Positions 35,101 to 41,100 of a stretch of 64,000 bases of DNA are shown piece by piece. Where the stretch lies: contig CM091797.1 in NCBI GenBank assembly GCA_043290085.1, positions 22,174,880 to 22,238,879 on the forward strand, given 5' to 3'. The DNA is from Rhynchocyon petersi. Its lineage: Eukaryota. Position numbers: made by a program. The stretch's first letter is position 1. Each line of letters opens with the position of its first letter.

Positions 35101-38100
35101 TGTGCTGGATGAAGTACTCGGCTGATTGCCAGAGAGCTGGAATCAACTCATAACTGACTCTCCAGCAGGTTTTCAGAGGCTGTAAATCACAAGAGAAGAA
35201 ACCACTACCCATCTTTCTCTCACATCAGCTGGTGGATCTTGACTGCCTGCCTTTGAGTTGCAGCTCAACTCCTGACCCAGGAGGCCATTAACTCCTGAGT
35301 GAAATAAGTCAGTCACAGAGAGACAAATAAGGTATGAGCCCATTTAGATGATACATGAAGAACAGGTGAAAAGAAATGACAGTTTATTCTGTTACTACAG
35401 GTACAAACCGTCGAGTAGTGAACCCTCCCAAGGGTTTCCAGAGGCAGTATCTCACACGGAAGTAGAAACCACTCTTTCTCCCACGGAGCAGCTGGCGGGT
35501 TTGAACCGCGTGCCTTTGGGCTTGCAGCGTAGCTCTTTCACCACTAGGCCATGCCAGCTGCCCTTACCACAGGGCCAATAGGGGATATCATGGTTGATGG
35601 AGAGAAAATCGAAACTGTCAGTAATTTTATACTGCTTGGATCCACAGTCAATACCCTTGGCACCAGTAGCCAGGAGATCAAAAGACGTATCACATTGGGG
35701 AAGGCCGCGGTTAGAGACCTTGCCAAGGTTCTGAAGAATAATGATGTAAGTCTAAGGACAAAGGTGCATCCGATTCAAACAATGGTCTTCTCTATCACTA
35801 CACATGCATCTGAAAGTTGGACAATGACTAGGGAAGATAGAAGAAGAATTGATGCCTTTGAGCTGTGGTGTTGTAGAAGAGTGCTCAATATTCCATAGAT
35901 GGCCAGGAAGACAAACAGATATGTTCTGGAGAAGGTCCAACCAGAGTTCTCCTTGGAGGCAAGGGTGACAAAGCTCCGCCTCACATATTTCGGACATGTT
36001 GCTAGGAGGGACGGGTTCCTGGAGAAGGACATTATGTTTGGGAAGGTGGAGGGTAAGAGAAAGAGGGGCAGACCCCCGACAAGATGGTTGGACACAGTTA
36101 CGGCAGCGATGGGTGCCAGTGTGTCAGGGTTGGTGAGGATGGCACAGGATAGGGGGCATTTCAGGTCTGTGGTTCATAGGGTCGCTATGAGTCGTCTTCG
36201 ACTCGATGACACATAACAACATAACAACAACAACAACAACAACAGGTACAAAGGAGGGGAGTATTGCTTAGGGGGCACAGAGCTTTAATTCAAGATAATG
36301 TGAAAATTTGGAAACACAAAGCATTGACAGTTGCAAAACATTATGAGCAAGACTACAATTACATTGCACATATAAAATACGTTAAATAGTTAAATGTTTT
36401 GTTATATATACTGCACTATACTTTTTAAAACCCTAGTAAAATTCCTGCAGAGGCTTAATGACTGCAGTCTTCGATATGGATTGTGGCTAAACCTCAAGAA
36501 AGCCAAGATCCTCACCACTGAGCCAATAGGGGATATCAGGATCGATGGAGAAAGATTTGAAACTGTCAGTGATTTCCTCTTGCCTGTATCCAGTCAACAA
36601 AATCCCTTAGTAAGAGCAGTCAAGAAAGAAAACAATGTATTACAATGGGACAGGTTGTTGTTAAGGACCTTTCCAAAATACTGAAGAGTAATGATGTCAG
36701 TTTGAAGATGAAGGAACACCCGATCCAAACCATGCTCTTCTCAATCACTAGCTATGCATCTGCAAGTTGGACAATAACCACGGACGACAGAAAAAGAATT
36801 GATGCCTTTGAGCAGTGGTGTTGAAGAAGAGTGCTCAATATCCCCTGGATGGCCAAGAGAAAAAAATATGTCCTGGAGAGGGTCCAGCCAGAGTACTCTT
36901 TAGAGGCAAGGATAGTGAAACTTCACCTCACATATTTTGGACATGTTGTTAGAAGAGGCCGGTCCGTGGAATGGGACATCACACTTGGAAAAAGGTGGAG
37001 GGTAAGAGAAAGAGAGGCAGACCTTGGACTAGATGGATAGGCACAGTGACTGCAATGATGCATCAAGTGATGATGAGGATGGCACAGGATAGGGCAAGTT
37101 TCAGATCTACTGTTCATAGGTGCTATGGCACCTAACAACAACAGTAAAACTCCTTACTAATATGTTGTGAGGAGGCACTTGAGTCTTTTTCCAATTTAAA
37201 AGGGGGTAAAAAACAGTAAGTTAAAAAATACTTACCTTCTTTTCAGTTTCCTTTCTATTTTTATCTGGGGGTAGCATGAAGTAGAAAAATATTGTTTTAA
37301 CTTAATCTGCTCTCCATTGTTGATATGAAGCCACTTACAAAGGAGGCATTGATAGGAAAAAAATGCCTAGGATTAACATGTGGACTCCAGATTTTTCAAA
37401 TATCAAAACCGAACTGAAACAAATTGTCAGCTTTGACACCTCTATATAAACGTTCTTAAAGTCACTTGGAGGGGGAAAGAACGATAAAACTCTCTCCTAA
37501 GTACCAAAAGATCCTAAATTGGCTTGGGAAGTGATGGCTTGGGAAGTCCGTCAGAATAAGAGTAGTATCTTGAAAGCCTTATTTCTCGTCAAATGCCACG
37601 ATCTATGGTGAAACAAAACCAGAAGCATTCTACAGGGATGAAAACGATGAGTTAAAGCATAAGATCGACAGCAAAGCCAATTAAACTCTCTCGAAAGTCT
37701 AAACAATAGCTCCAAGCCAGGCCAAAACCGCAAGAAAGGTAGACTGCCAAGGCTCCTGAAACAGCCTTAACCCCTGATGGGCATTAAACCGGTGGTTCCC
37801 GAGGTCAGCCGACCACCCCGTCCTTCCGACTCGCTTCCTCGGCCGAGTCGACCCAACCCTCGCAACCCATTAGCCCTCTCCATGGCGCCCAATACCCGCT
37901 CCATGCCCCTCACCGCTCTCCTCCTCCGACTAGCACAGAAGTGGCAATGGACTCCCGCCGCATTTACAAACTAGCCGCCGCAGCTGCTTTCCGGCTGGGT
38001 CACTGCTTCTGACTCGAGTAGCCCCGCCCATTCTCAAGGGCTGTTGGGAAACGTAGTTCTTTCCGGGTCTTCCGCGTAAGATGTAGCACCGCCGGAACCT

Positions 38101-41100
38101 GGTAAACTACAACTCCCAGAGGTACTATGAATAAGGACGTTACGGTGTGTGTTACTGGGAGACGCCTCAGTCCCTGCAGGCTACCAGATGGAGTAGGGCT
38201 TGGGGGCGGGAACGGGGCGGGAACGGGGCGGGCCCGCGGGAGGGAAGATTGTTTACAGTTAAAGGGCACTGAACTGAAAACTGCATTTAAAAAGAAAGGC
38301 AGAGTCTACAAGAGAAAGAAATCTATATGTTCCTTGAAAATTGGAGTGCAGAGACCCATATCTTACAACCTAGAGGCAATATTTTACAGATTGATAATGT
38401 TCTGTTAGTTGTTACTCTTGGCCTTGTTTTCCCTTTGGTTTCAGCTGTTGTCACTGGGTGACATCGAATCCAGTATGACTCATAGACATGTGTTTAATTG
38501 CTTGATGGCCTTTAAGCACTCTATTAGTTTTTATTATGCATTTTTAAAGCGGTACTTTACTTCCTAAAAACATGAAAATGACCAAAGATTTTAATGTATG
38601 TCTTAGGCTGATTCCTAGAGAAGCAAAACCAATGAACCCACAGGGCCTAATAAACCAAGATCACAGGCAACATGGTAGGCTGCTGGCTTCTGAAGCTGAT
38701 GAATTCAAGATCAGCAGGCAATATGACAGGCTGTTATCTCAAGTCTAAAGAAACAGAAGTCAGATAATGACAAGCCTGATGTAGCAAAAAATCAAGAGAC
38801 CTTTGCCAGCTGTCCAAACGTATTTGATGCAGGTCAGGCTACACACCCAAGGAAAGTTCATTTCAACACAGCAGATTTCATCAGGGAAGAGGTTACATTA
38901 TACCAAGTCTCACTAGGGACATGGTTGTTGATGCTGTTGGGTGCCACTAAGAAATTTGAAAGGCAGCTACTTTACCGACTGAATGGTCTATATGAAGATC
39001 TCTATAAAGATATAGGCAGCTGGTATGGTCTAGTGGTGAAAGAGCTGCGCTGCAAGCCCAAAGGCAGGCTGTTCAAACCTGCCAGCTGCTCCTCAGGAGA
39101 AAGAGTAGAAAGAGTGGTTTCTACTTCCGTGTGAGATACTGCTTCTGGAAACCCTCGGGAGGGTCACTATGAGTCGTTCACGACTCGACGGTACACACCA
39201 CACCATAAAGATATATATATATATACGTAAAGATATAGTTATATATGTAAAGATATAGTTATATATGAAAAGATATATATGTAAAGATATAGTTATATAT
39301 GTAAAGATATAGTTATATATGTAAAGATATATATGTAAAGATATAGATATATAGATCTATATATGTACCCATTCTCAAAAAAAGTGATCCAACAACCTTT
39401 GGAAATTATCAAACAATATTATGTACAAGTAAAATTTTACCAAATATTATTTTAAAATTACTGGAACAGTAAATCAACAAGGAACTTCTAGAAATTCAAG
39501 CTGAATTCAGGAAAGGAAAGGAGAGGGTTATAACTGCTGATGTCAGATGTGTCTTTATTGAAAGTAAAATATGCTAGAAAGATATTTACTTGTGTTTTGT
39601 TGACTATTCAAAGGCATTTGACTATGTGGCTCATAATAAACTATTAATAACATTGAGATGAATGGGACTCCTAGAACACTTCATTGTGCTCATGGAAATG
39701 CATTAAGTATACCCAAAAGCAGTTTTTCAAATAGAACAAGTGGACATTTCATGGTTTTAAATCAGGAAAGGTGTACATAGGGGTTGTAGCCCTCCACTAT
39801 ACTTATTTAATCTGCATATTGTTCTTGTTAGGTGTCATTGAGTTGAGTATGACTCACAGAGTCTGCTTCTCCTTCGCTGACCCTCCACCTTTCCAAGCAT
39901 GATGTCCCCTTTCAGGGACTGGCCTCTCATAACAACATGCCCCAAATATGTGAGACAAAGCTTCACTATCCTTGCCTCTAAGAAGCACTCTGGTTCCACT
40001 CCAAGAAATATTTCTTTGTTCTTTTGGCATTCCACAGGTTATTAAACACTCTCCTCCAACACCACAGCTCAAAAGAATCAATTCTTCTCTGTCATCCTTA
40101 CTCACCGACTTACAGATATGGCTAATAATCGAGAAGACCATGCCTTTGTTCTCAAATTGACATCATTACTCTTTTTTTGTTTTGTTTTACATCAGTACTC
40201 TTTAGCACTCTGGAGAGGTCTTTAACAGCAAACTTTCCCAATCTAATTCATCTTTTAATTTCTTAACTGATGGTGCTAAGAGTGTTAACTGTGGGTCCAG
40301 GAAAGATTAAATCATTGACAGTTTCAATCCTTTCTCCATTAATTATTCTATTTCTCACTGGCCTAGTGGTGAGGATCATGGTTTTATTGACGCTTAACCA
40401 TAATCTATACTGAGAACTGCAGTCCTTGATATTCTGTAGCAAACTTTTCAAGTCTTCTTCACTTTCAGCAGAGTTGTATCATCTGCATTTCACAAGTTGT
40501 TGATGCTTCTTCCTCCAAACTTCCTCATAGCACCAGTCTTCTTGAATAATTTGCTCTGCATACAGACTGAACAGGTATAGGGATGGGATAGAACACTGAG
40601 GCACGCCTTTTTTGATTTTGAACAAGCCATGCTCTCTTGAGACAATGACCTCTTGATCTAGGTATAGATTTCACATGTGTATAATTAAGTGTTCTGGATT
40701 TACCATTTTTCTCAGTTTCGGCCATAGTTTGTTGTGATCCAACAATCAAATTCCTTTGCATAGTCAATGAAACATAAGTAGACATTCCTCTGGTATACTT
40801 TGCTTTCAGCCAAGATCCATCTGACATCCACAGTGACATCCCTGGTGCCACAGCCCCTTCTAAAATCCAGCCTGACTTTCTGGCAGCTCTTTGTCCTTTT
40901 TAAATAACTTTCTATAGGATTTTGCTTGCATATGGTATCAGTGATCAATGATTGTTGAGCAATTTACACAATATGTGGGATCACCTTTTTTGGAATTGGA
41001 ACAAACATGGATCTCTTCCAATCAATTGGCCAGGTAGCTGTCTTCCAGATTTTTTGGCACAGCTTGTTGAGTACATCCAGGGCTGCATCTGTCTGATGAA

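What the first reader, a model, noticed from the sequence alone, without database searches (positions are those of the whole stretch)
37790..38260. CpG-island promoter with triple GC box, ETS cores and a ZNF143-like motif, 16 kb upstream (in the minus sense) of the candidate exons
This is the only CpG-rich island in an otherwise CpG-depleted, TE-dense window. Its motif content is typical of a housekeeping and often bidirectional promoter. It could drive the minus-strand gene whose candidate exons lie at 21.9 and 20.9 kb, or a gene beyond the window on the plus strand. Most TE insertions between the promoter and the exons would then be intronic.
Basis: partly seen in the sequence, partly recalled or inferred. 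Interest (0 to 1): 0.55.

Follow-up and report, generated by a model that had tools for sequence, protein, structure and literature searches.

The report
CENPJ gene promoter CpG island
This CpG-rich stretch is the ordinary, evolutionarily conserved promoter and untranslated first exon of the centriole gene CENPJ (CPAP), whose coding exons lie 16 kb away across an intron swollen by transposon insertions.

Summary
Window 37790-38260 has GC 0.61 and CpG o/e 0.85, against 0.32 for the whole window. It carries three GGGGCGGG boxes and two inverted ACTACAnnTCCCA (M4 / THAP11-ZNF143) motifs, not one, and it is single-copy in the window.

The minus-strand exons at 21.9 and 20.9 kb are CENPJ/CPAP exons 2 and 3. 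Exon 4 lies at 146-27.

CpG islands upstream of the CENPJ start-codon exon in golden mole, armadillo, mouse lemur, woodchuck and water buffalo align to this one. They share the same blocks in the same order:
- a CRE-like AACG core
- M4 motif 1
- M4 motif 2
- a GGCGG-N4-TTTGTAAATGC block

A guinea-pig RNA contig carries that last block inside a 5' exon spliced to exon 2, at the acceptor conserved in the window. So the island is the CENPJ promoter plus non-coding exon 1, and intron 1 is 15.9 kb.

The triple GC box is a lineage-specific 11-bp tandem duplication, and the ETS cores are not conserved. I found no plus-strand partner gene.

"Only CpG island" holds only for non-repeat DNA, because L1 5' ends and ERV LTRs also pass the criteria.

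This is the ordinary orthologue of a known promoter, so interest is low. The one new lead is that the conserved block looks like an undescribed CDE/CHR (DREAM) element.

The parts
37651..38350 (-). CpG island (core 37790-38260): CENPJ promoter, exon 1 and the start of intron 1
   Evidence: GC 0.55-0.61 and CpG o/e 0.77-0.85. Unique in the window. Collinear alignment to the woodchuck island scores 518 against shuffles of mean 268 and max 351, z about 10. Aligns to the golden-mole island at E=2e-24.
38203..38232 (+). Three GGGGCGGG (Sp1-type GC) boxes, an 11-bp tandem repeat GGGGCGGGAAC x2.7, at the distal edge of the promoter
   Evidence: Not conserved in the five other species of alignment A4, so it is a lineage-specific duplication.
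38136..38143 (-). Conserved GTAACGTC block (CRE-like; AACG invariant in 6 species)
   Evidence: Alignment A4 and block analysis. The human CPAP promoter is reported to have functional CREB sites (PMC6551916). Equivalence to those sites is not shown.
38103..38121 (+). M4 / THAP11-binding (ACTACAnnTCCCA) motif 1, antisense to the gene: ACTACAACTCCCA at 38106-38118
   Evidence: 2 hits in 64 kb, 0.03 expected. The most conserved 12-mer of the island, 0.97 column identity over 6 species. Motif definition from PMC3627581 and PMC5006282.
38033..38059 (-). M4 / SBS2-type motif 2, in the sense of the gene: GAACTACGTTTCCCAACAGCCCTTGAG
   Evidence: The conserved 3' extension AGCCCT matches the 18-bp ZNF143 SBS1 consensus at about 12-13 of 18 positions (my comparison with the probe sequences quoted).
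38022..38029 (-). Proximal GC box GGGCGGGG just downstream of motif 2, partly conserved
   Evidence: GGGCGGG in armadillo, GAGCGGGG in golden mole, GGGACGGG in lemur and woodchuck.
37956..37981 (-). Conserved GCGGCGGCT-AG-TTTGTAAATGCGGCG block: candidate CDE (GGCGG), 4-nt spacer and CHR (TTTGTA) tandem element, lying in exon 1 or the TSS region
   Evidence: Best local match to woodchuck. Present in all 6 genomic sequences and in the guinea-pig RNA contig. Only the two inner spacer bases vary freely. TTTGTA is a validated non-canonical CHR, and a CDE sits 4 nt upstream of a CHR (PMC4176359).
37914..38030 (-). CENPJ non-coding exon 1. The 5' end is inferred, with the TSS somewhere around 38045-37960. 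The 3' end is at donor GAGAGCG|GTGAGG (GT at 37913-37912). An alternative weaker donor CGG|GTATTG would end the exon at 37896.
   Evidence: RNA contigs L002, L003 and L004 have a 5' exon joined to the exon 2 acceptor. L004 is guinea-pig CENPJ (99% to P0152), and its exon 1 holds the conserved block. The donor GAGCG|GTGAG is shared with golden mole, while other species align a CG|GTAAT donor about 18 nt further on. No host RNA data are available.
21973..37913 (-). CENPJ intron 1, 15.9 kb and TE-laden
   Evidence: 58% is covered by within-window repeats. Collinear unique blocks match Elephantulus intron 1. The block-to-ATG distance is 3.6-9.7 kb in five other mammals.
37233..37470 (-). Conserved non-coding element in intron 1, about 450-680 bp downstream of exon 1
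   Evidence: 76% identity to Elephantulus over 241 bp. Also found in armadillo and golden mole, and partly in mouse lemur. Function unknown.
21457..21972 (-). CENPJ exon 2 (acceptor tctacag|GTGTGG; ATG at 21906-21904; donor CAG|gtagcg)
   Evidence: The 5'UTR part matches the RNA contigs.
20852..20975 (-). CENPJ exon 3 ([42 protein letters not shown])
27..146 (-). CENPJ exon 4 (tblastn match only; boundaries not refined)

Best explanation
The island is the RNA polymerase II promoter and non-coding first exon of the host's CENPJ (CPAP) gene, transcribed on the minus strand.

Shown: the island is single-copy. It lies 15.9 kb upstream of the CENPJ ATG exon. It is orthologous to the islands upstream of CENPJ in five other mammalian orders. 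In other mammals its most conserved block is part of an exon spliced to exon 2.

Inferred mechanism: two inverted ACTACAnnTCCCA (M4) motifs about 50 bp apart recruit THAP11/HCF-1 and/or ZNF143, helped by a CRE-like site and GC boxes. These set basal activity and keep the island unmethylated. Transcription starts between motif 2 and the GGCGG-N4-TTTGTA block. That block acts as a CDE/CHR element bound by DREAM/MuvB, which makes the gene cell-cycle and p53 responsive. Exon 1 then splices from GAGCG|GTGAGG (37914) to the acceptor at 21972.

The triple GC box is a recent local duplication that may add Sp1 input but is not part of the ancestral design.
For: Gene identity:
- Exons 2-4 hit proteins named centromere protein J / CPAP. 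The best are Elephantulus at 77% and Trichechus at 73%.
- In the orthologous loci the neighbour on the 3' side of CENPJ is a convergent Tudor-domain gene, so the gene order is shared.

Orthology of the island:
- Woodchuck local alignment z about 10.
- Golden mole E=2e-24.
- Six-species alignment with the same ordered blocks.
- CpG islands with the same motifs lie 3.6-9.7 kb upstream of the ATG in five genomes.

Transcription and splicing, by comparison with other species:
- RNA contigs L002-L004 join a 5' exon to the conserved exon 2 acceptor.
- The guinea-pig exon 1 carries GGCGGCTCATTCGTAAACGC.

Motifs beyond chance.

Literature:
- M4/TBS/SBS2 definition, and an M4 position peak about 89 bp upstream of TSSs (PMC3627581, PMC5006282).
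- TTTGTA is a validated CHR, a CDE sits 4 nt upstream, and CHRs lie at or near the TSS (PMC4176359).
- CENPJ is among 268 DREAM/RB-repressed genes (PMC6753476).
- BUB1B shows the same design of two SBS plus a CDE/CHR at the TSS (PMC1904299).
- A human CPAP 0.5-kb promoter is active in reporter assays (PMC6551916).
Against: - There is no RNA-seq, CAGE or ChIP evidence from the host species. The TSS and the donor (37914 versus 37896) are inferred.
- Motif 1 lacks a recognisable ZNF143 3' half, and the ZNF143 DNA-binding domain does not bind the TBS alone. ZNF143 occupancy is therefore uncertain.
- Armadillo and guinea pig have TTCGTA, which is not among the ten validated CHR variants.
- CENPJ is not in the published table of conserved-CHR late cell-cycle genes.
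- GTAAAT/GTAAAC could instead be a forkhead-type site or a 5'UTR element.
- The human CENPJ promoter sequence could not be fetched for direct comparison.
Confidence: 0.9

Rival explanations
1. It is a bidirectional promoter that also, or mainly, drives a plus-strand gene or lncRNA starting near 38250 and running beyond the window.
For: The two M4 motifs point in opposite directions. ZNF143 sites are enriched at bidirectional promoters (PMC3082894, abstract). Pol II forms two peaks flanking SBS2 loci.
Against: - The island ends abruptly at about 38245.
- 38.3-64 kb is SINE, L1 and a provirus with no host-like ORF.
- No sequence upstream of the island is conserved with five other species.
- No gene is called in the upstream flanks of five annotated genomes.
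- An unstable upstream antisense RNA cannot be excluded.
Confidence: 0.12
2. It is part of an unrecognised GC-rich repeat or TE-derived promoter (such as an L1 5'UTR, an LTR or an MLT1J-derived SBS2), not a host gene promoter.
For: The window is 64% within-window repeat. The other CpG-rich stretches are TE 5' ends or LTRs. SBS2 motifs occur in MLT1J elements.
Against: There is no second copy in the window. The island sits at the same syntenic position, with the same block order, in Afrotheria, Xenarthra, Primates, Rodentia and Cetartiodactyla. It contains the transcribed CENPJ exon 1.
Confidence: 0.02
3. It is an snRNA-type or Pol III type-3 promoter (Staf/ZNF143 distal element) for a small RNA gene.
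For: ZNF143/Staf was first defined on tRNA-Sec, U6, 7SK and Y RNA genes.
Against: Rfam found no family anywhere in the window, and no tRNA was found. ZNF143 sites at snRNA and Pol III genes are SBS1-only, without ACTACA, whereas both motifs here are ACTACA-type. No TATA box was seen on reading the island; PSE and TATA were not formally searched for.
Confidence: 0.02
4. It is the CENPJ promoter, but the conserved GGCGG-N4-TTTGTAAATGC block is not a CDE/CHR. It would be a forkhead-type (GTAAAC/T) site, an initiator region or a 5'UTR RNA element, and DREAM would act through another site.
For: - GTAAAT/GTAAAC resembles the forkhead core (my knowledge).
- Conservation continues 3' of the hexamer (AATGC), which a CHR does not require.
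- TTCGTA in two species is not a validated CHR.
- CENPJ is absent from the published conserved-CHR gene table.
Against: The 4-nt spacing is exact in 7 species, with variation confined to the spacer. TTTGTA is validated in Chek2. CENPJ is a DREAM/RB-repressed gene. The location next to the inferred TSS is typical of CHRs.
Confidence: 0.45

Closest known systems
Human CENPJ/CPAP proximal promoter (0.5-kb reporter construct; PMC6551916)
   Same: The same gene by orthology of the coding exons. A CpG-island promoter upstream of a non-coding exon 1. A conserved CRE-like AACGTC core could correspond to one of the reported CREB sites.
   Different: The human sequence itself could not be retrieved here, so site-by-site equivalence is untested. 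The window's intron 1 is 15.9 kb, against 3.6-9.7 kb in the five species examined. The triple GC box is specific to this lineage.
Human BUB1B promoter (two conserved Staf/ZNF143 sites plus an Inr-CDE-CHR domain at the TSS; PMC1904299)
   Same: It has the same architecture. Two conserved ZNF143/M4-type sites lie upstream, and a GC-rich CDE followed by a CHR-like hexamer lies at the start-site region of a mitosis or centrosome gene.
   Different: It is a different gene, and there is no functional data here. The two motifs here are inverted relative to each other, and only one has an SBS-like 3' half. The CHR-like hexamer is the rare TTTGTA variant.
M4 / THAP11-HCF-1 binding site and ZNF143 SBS2 (PMC3627581, PMC5006282)
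   Same: Both motifs fit ACTAYRNNNCCCR and ACTACANNTCCCA exactly, and they are phylogenetically conserved in a core promoter.
   Different: The 18-bp ZNF143 part is only partly matched (about 12-13 of 18 for motif 2, poor for motif 1), so these may be THAP11-type rather than ZNF143-type sites.
CDE/CHR tandem elements of DREAM/MuvB target genes, including the non-canonical TTTGTA CHR of Chek2 (PMC4176359)
   Same: A GC-rich GGCGG lies exactly 4 nt upstream of TTTGTA, conserved and next to the inferred TSS, in a gene reported as DREAM/RB-repressed.
   Different: It has not been described for CENPJ in the papers read. Two species carry TTCGTA. Binding and cell-cycle function are untested.

Membership tests
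CpG island (Gardiner-Garden & Frommer criteria) | Length >=200 bp, GC >=0.5, CpG observed/expected >=0.6 | tested here: met
   37790-38260: GC 0.609, o/e 0.85. The merged sliding windows 37651-38350 give GC 0.546, o/e 0.77.
CENPJ/CPAP promoter (orthologue) | Lies upstream of, and in the same orientation as, the CENPJ coding exons, with no other gene between | tested here: met
   Exons 2-4 are identified as CENPJ. The interval 21973-37913 holds only repeats and unique non-coding DNA.
CENPJ/CPAP promoter (orthologue) | Sequence orthology to the islands upstream of CENPJ in other mammals | tested here: met
   (z about 10). There are five independent orders plus guinea-pig RNA.
CENPJ/CPAP promoter (orthologue) | Contains a transcribed exon 1 spliced to the ATG exon | tested here: inconclusive
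   This is shown by comparison only. RNA contigs of other mammals (L002-L004) splice a 5' exon to the acceptor conserved at window 21972, and the guinea-pig exon 1 contains the island's conserved block. No host RNA is available.
CENPJ/CPAP promoter (orthologue) | Transcription start sites mapped in the island (CAGE, 5'RACE) | not testable with these tools
   No expression data for the host are available.
THAP11-binding site / M4 motif | ACTACANNTCCCA (TBS) or ACTAYRNNNCCCR (M4) in a core promoter, phylogenetically conserved | tested here: met
   Two exact matches, 0.03 expected. Both are conserved in 6 species.
ZNF143/Staf binding site (SBS1/SBS2) | 18-bp consensus TTCCCAnnATGCAyyGCG. The 3' half is needed for ZNF143 DBD binding, since the TBS alone is not bound. 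| tested here: inconclusive
   Motif 2, TTCCCAACAGCCCTTGAG, matches about 12 of 18 positions, with a conserved AGCCCT. Motif 1 has a poor 3' half that is not conserved.
ZNF143/Staf binding site (SBS1/SBS2) | Occupancy by ZNF143 in vivo | not testable with these tools
   No paper read lists CENPJ as a ZNF143 target.
CDE/CHR tandem element (DREAM/MuvB) | CHR hexamer belonging to the experimentally validated set | tested here: met
   TTTGTA occurs in the window, golden mole, lemur, woodchuck and buffalo. It is validated for Chek2. Armadillo and guinea pig have TTCGTA, which is not validated.
CDE/CHR tandem element (DREAM/MuvB) | GC-rich CDE exactly 4 nt upstream of the CHR | tested here: met
   GGCGG-N4-TTYGTA is found in all 7 sequences, and the spacer is the variable part. 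Definition.
CDE/CHR tandem element (DREAM/MuvB) | Located on or very near the TSS | tested here: inconclusive
   The block lies in exon 1 of the guinea-pig RNA contig, at least 64 nt from its 5' end. The host TSS is unknown.
CDE/CHR tandem element (DREAM/MuvB) | DREAM binding and G0/G1 repression that depend on the element | not testable with these tools
   Only gene-level support exists: human CENPJ is among the p53-p21-DREAM/RB-repressed genes.
Bidirectional promoter | A second gene or TSS on the opposite strand within about 1 kb | tested here: not met
   There is no conserved sequence upstream, only TEs upstream, and no upstream gene call in five annotated genomes. Non-coding antisense transcripts are not testable.
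Sp1 GC-box cluster as an ancestral promoter element | GC boxes conserved at the orthologous position | tested here: not met
   The triple box is an 11-bp tandem duplication that is absent from the other five species. Only the single proximal GGGCGGGG at 38022-38029 is partly conserved.
ETS-driven promoter | CCGGAAR cores conserved at the orthologous position | tested here: not met
   The cores are present, but the columns are not conserved. Conversely, a GCGGAAGG shared by lemur, woodchuck and buffalo is degenerate in the window at 38167-38155.

The most novel reading that the evidence does not exclude
CENPJ, a primary-microcephaly and centriole-duplication gene, would be switched through a previously undescribed, deeply conserved CDE/CHR tandem. 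The element is GGCGG, a 4-nt spacer and the rare TTTGTA CHR variant. It is shared across Afrotheria, Xenarthra and Boreoeutheria, and it sits in the start-site region just downstream of a head-to-head pair of THAP11/ZNF143 M4 motifs. This would give the physical site through which DREAM/p53 represses CENPJ.
Probability: 0.4. Interest if true: 0.3.

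Novelty: already known. Interest (0 to 1): 0.12.

Why it matters
It matters mainly for annotation. The result fixes the 5' end of CENPJ in this TE-dense afrotherian-like locus: exon 1 near 37.9-38.0 kb and a 15.9-kb intron 1. It also shows that the other CpG-rich stretches in the window are L1 and ERV promoters, not host promoters.

The cross-order footprint separates ancestral elements from lineage noise. The ancestral elements are the two M4 motifs, the CRE-like core and the GGCGG-N4-TTTGTA block. The lineage-specific ones are the triple GC box and the ETS cores.

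The footprint also nominates one testable regulatory element for a microcephaly gene known to be DREAM-repressed. None of this would surprise a specialist.

Tried and rejected
- Rfam (gathering thresholds) and ARAGORN over the whole window found nothing. This rejects a small-RNA gene or snRNA-type promoter.
- Self-BLAST found no second copy of the island, which rejects a repeat.
- A plain blastn of the window against the woodchuck locus missed the island. It was found only by CpG and motif scanning followed by alignment.
Four are vertebrate-like CpG-island promoters of other genes (L005, L007, L008, L010) and the rest are unrelated. None is a CENPJ orthologue.
- A search with L1 ORF1 meant to name the host species gave only hits of about 54% identity or less, so the species is unresolved. 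By CENPJ exon identity the host is closest to Elephantulus and Chrysochloris.
- The Elephantulus locus is syntenic through intron 1, but its promoter lies beyond the 10-kb flank, behind TE insertions.
- Look-ups of Trichechus, Cavia and Pan proteins failed, apparently because only the longest isoform of a gene is indexed. No human, chimpanzee or elephant promoter was obtained.
- The uATG in exon 1 (AAATGC) is not conserved, so I did not pursue it. Guinea pig has AAACGC, and in woodchuck the ORF stops after 3 codons.
- The CCAAT at 37889-37893 lies in intron 1 and is not conserved.

Full report
**Observation.** Window 37790-38260 has GC 0.609, 37 CpGs and CpG o/e 0.85. The 64-kb window as a whole has GC 0.416 and o/e 0.315. 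With 200-bp sliding windows the island runs from 37651 to 38350.

The named motifs are present and are far more frequent than chance. Three GGGGCGGG boxes lie at 38203-38232; there are 5 in the window against 0.23 expected, and the other two are inside L1 copies. Tandem Repeats Finder shows these three are an 11-bp unit, GGGGCGGGAAC, repeated 2.7 times. The ZNF143-like motif is in fact a pair. ACTACAACTCCCA at 38106-38118 (+) and ACTACGTTTCCCA at 38045-38057 (-) are the only two matches to ACTACRNYTCCCA in 64 kb, against 0.03 expected. CCGGAA cores occur at 37988, 38060 and 38092. The island has no second copy in the window.

The claim that this is the only CpG island needs qualifying. Stretches at 6551-7050 and 41701-42450 pass the same criteria. 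They are the 5' ends of two L1 elements that are 96% identical. Short CpG-rich pieces at 49.0-49.25 and 56.6-56.8 kb lie in the two 99.4%-identical LTRs of a provirus.

**The gene.** The minus-strand ORFs at 21.9 and 20.9 kb translate to [10 protein letters not shown]...[11 protein letters not shown] and [18 protein letters not shown].... They hit proteins named centromere protein J at E=1e-79. A long query then retrieved full-length CENPJ/CPAP from more than 100 mammals. The window's exons 2-4 are closest to Elephantulus edwardii (77% protein, 82% DNA), then Chrysochloris and Trichechus.

The host is therefore probably an afrotherian that is not among the listed hits. This fits the RTE-like and SINE content, which I recognise from memory only. 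It also fits the collinear intron-1 blocks shared with Elephantulus.

Exon boundaries read from the sequence:
- exon 2 is 21972-21457, with acceptor tctacag|GTGTGG and ATG at 21906
- exon 3 is 20975-20852
- exon 4 is at 146-27

**Is the island the CENPJ promoter?** I fetched six genomic loci through their CENPJ proteins. Five of them have a CpG island upstream of the ATG exon. Measured from the conserved block to the ATG, the distances are:
- 3.6 kb in water buffalo
- 4.9 kb in woodchuck
- 6.0 kb in golden mole
- 6.8 kb in mouse lemur
- 9.7 kb in armadillo

In Elephantulus the promoter lies beyond the 10-kb flank.

The window island aligns collinearly with the woodchuck island. The local score is 518, against dinucleotide shuffles of mean 268 and maximum 351, z about 10. 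It aligns with the golden-mole island at E=2e-24.

The six-species alignment (analysed) shows the same blocks in the same order:
- GTAACGTC (38143-38136)
- CTCTGGGAGTTGTAGTTT (38121-38103; motif 1, antisense)
- GAACTACnnnTCCCA..AGCCCT (38059-38033; motif 2, sense)
- a partly conserved GGGCGGGG (38029-38022)
- GCGGCGGCT (37981-37973) followed by TTTGTAAATGCGGCG (37970-37956)
- the GAGAGCG|GT donor (37920-37913)

The triple GC box and the CCGGAA cores are not conserved.

**Transcript evidence, by comparison with other species.** Three Logan contigs carry CENPJ coding sequence that is contiguous across exons, so they derive from RNA. Each has a 5' segment joined to GT(G/A)TTGGA..AATAGC. That is the sequence immediately 3' of the acceptor at window 21972. 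L004 is guinea pig, 99% identical to Cavia CENPJ. Its 5' exon contains TGGCGGCTCATTCGTAAACGC, the homologue of window 37981-37956.

Exon 1 therefore lies inside the island. The donor is most likely GAGAGCG|GTGAGG, ending the exon at 37914, a site shared with golden mole. A weaker GTATTG site 18 nt downstream aligns with the CG|GTAAT donors of lemur, woodchuck and armadillo. Intron 1 is 15.9 kb, and 58% of it is within-window repeat.

**Mechanism (inferred).** Both motifs fit the THAP11 site ACTACANNTCCCA and the M4 motif ACTAYRNNNCCCR. Genome-wide, THAP11 binding is restricted to loci with a ZNF143 SBS2 motif, and the M4 motif peaks about 89 bp upstream of TSSs (PMC3627581, PMC5006282). Only motif 2 has a conserved 3' extension resembling the ZNF143 18-mer, at about 12-13 of 18 positions. 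The ZNF143 DNA-binding domain does not bind the TBS alone, so THAP11/HCF-1 is at least as likely an occupant as ZNF143.

The most conserved block is GGCGG, four variable bases, then TTTGTA. A GC-rich CDE 4 nt upstream of a CHR is the defined tandem arrangement. TTTGTA is one of the validated non-canonical CHRs (Chek2), and CHRs lie on or near TSSs (PMC4176359).

Human CENPJ is among 268 genes repressed through p53-p21-DREAM/RB (PMC6753476). A 2026 preprint appears to group it with the DREAM-dependent microcephaly genes. The BUB1B promoter has the same layout, with two conserved Staf/ZNF143 sites plus CDE/CHR at the start sites (PMC1904299). A human 0.5-kb CPAP promoter with CREB sites has been characterised (PMC6551916), and the conserved AACGTC core may correspond to one of those sites.

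There are caveats. Armadillo and guinea pig have TTCGTA, which is not a validated CHR. CENPJ is not in the published conserved-CHR table. GTAAAT/C could be a forkhead-type site instead.

**Rivals.**
- A repeat origin is excluded by single-copy status and cross-order synteny.
- A small-RNA or snRNA-type promoter is excluded by Rfam and ARAGORN and by the ACTACA-type motifs.
- A plus-strand partner gene is not supported. Upstream of the island there are only a SINE, an L1 (41.6-47.7 kb), a provirus (48.9-56.8 kb) and further L1s. There is no cross-species conservation there, and no gene is called in the upstream flanks of five genomes. An unstable antisense transcript cannot be excluded.

**Verdict.** The feature is the ordinary orthologue of a known promoter, so it is already known and of low interest. 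The only new lead is the conserved CDE/CHR-like element.

Noticed in passing
window 48862-56796: A young endogenous retrovirus. Its 315-bp LTRs (48862-49176 and 56483-56796) are 99.4% identical. It has long open gag (p24, zinc knuckles), dUTPase-protease and RT-RNaseH-integrase (837 aa) ORFs, a betaretrovirus-like layout.
   Followed up: partly
window 6424-12725 and 41602-47732: Two same-strand L1 copies of about 6.1 kb, 96-97% identical. The second has an intact 353-aa ORF1 and a long EN-RT ORF2. Their CpG-rich 5' ends are the window's other large 'CpG islands', and each carries one GGGGCGGG.
   Followed up: partly
window 37233-37470 (minus strand, intron 1 of CENPJ): A conserved non-coding element of about 220 bp lies 450-680 bp downstream of exon 1. 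It is 76% identical to Elephantulus and alignable in armadillo, golden mole and partly mouse lemur. It could be an intronic enhancer or an alternative exon; function unknown.
   Followed up: partly
window 147-20851: CENPJ intron 3 is about 20.7 kb here, with exon 3 at 20975-20852 and exon 4 at 146-27. It is filled with L1 and RTE-like elements, so the 5' part of the gene is greatly expanded by TEs.
   Followed up: no
window 57925-60774 (minus): Another L1 with a 949-aa EN+RT ORF. An inverted 873-bp duplication, 99.5% identical, lies at 60091-60963 and 61337-62209.
   Followed up: no
L005, L007, L008, L010 (metagenome contigs): JGI metagenome contigs carry vertebrate-like CpG-island promoters with the same head-to-head pair of ACTACA..TCCCA motifs 40-60 bp apart. 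This is presumably host DNA contamination. It suggests the inverted M4 pair is a recurrent promoter layout.
   Followed up: no
P0037, P0038, P0069: RefSeq models named nucleoporin NUP42 isoform X1 in Loxodonta, Trichechus and Tenrec carry L1 ORF1 RBD and dsRBD Pfam domains and are 45-50% identical to the window's L1 ORF1. This is either an afrotherian exonised or fused L1 ORF1 or an annotation artefact.
   Followed up: no
P0094: A 'hypothetical protein' of Streptomyces narbonensis is an L1 ORF1 protein on a 2.3-kb contig. This is almost certainly mammalian contamination in a bacterial assembly.
   Followed up: no
L001 4879-5570: The woodchuck GenBank annotation calls a 203-aa 'gene' across the CENPJ CpG island and exon 1, in the same orientation as CENPJ. 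It is probably a spurious ORF call in GC-rich DNA.
   Followed up: no
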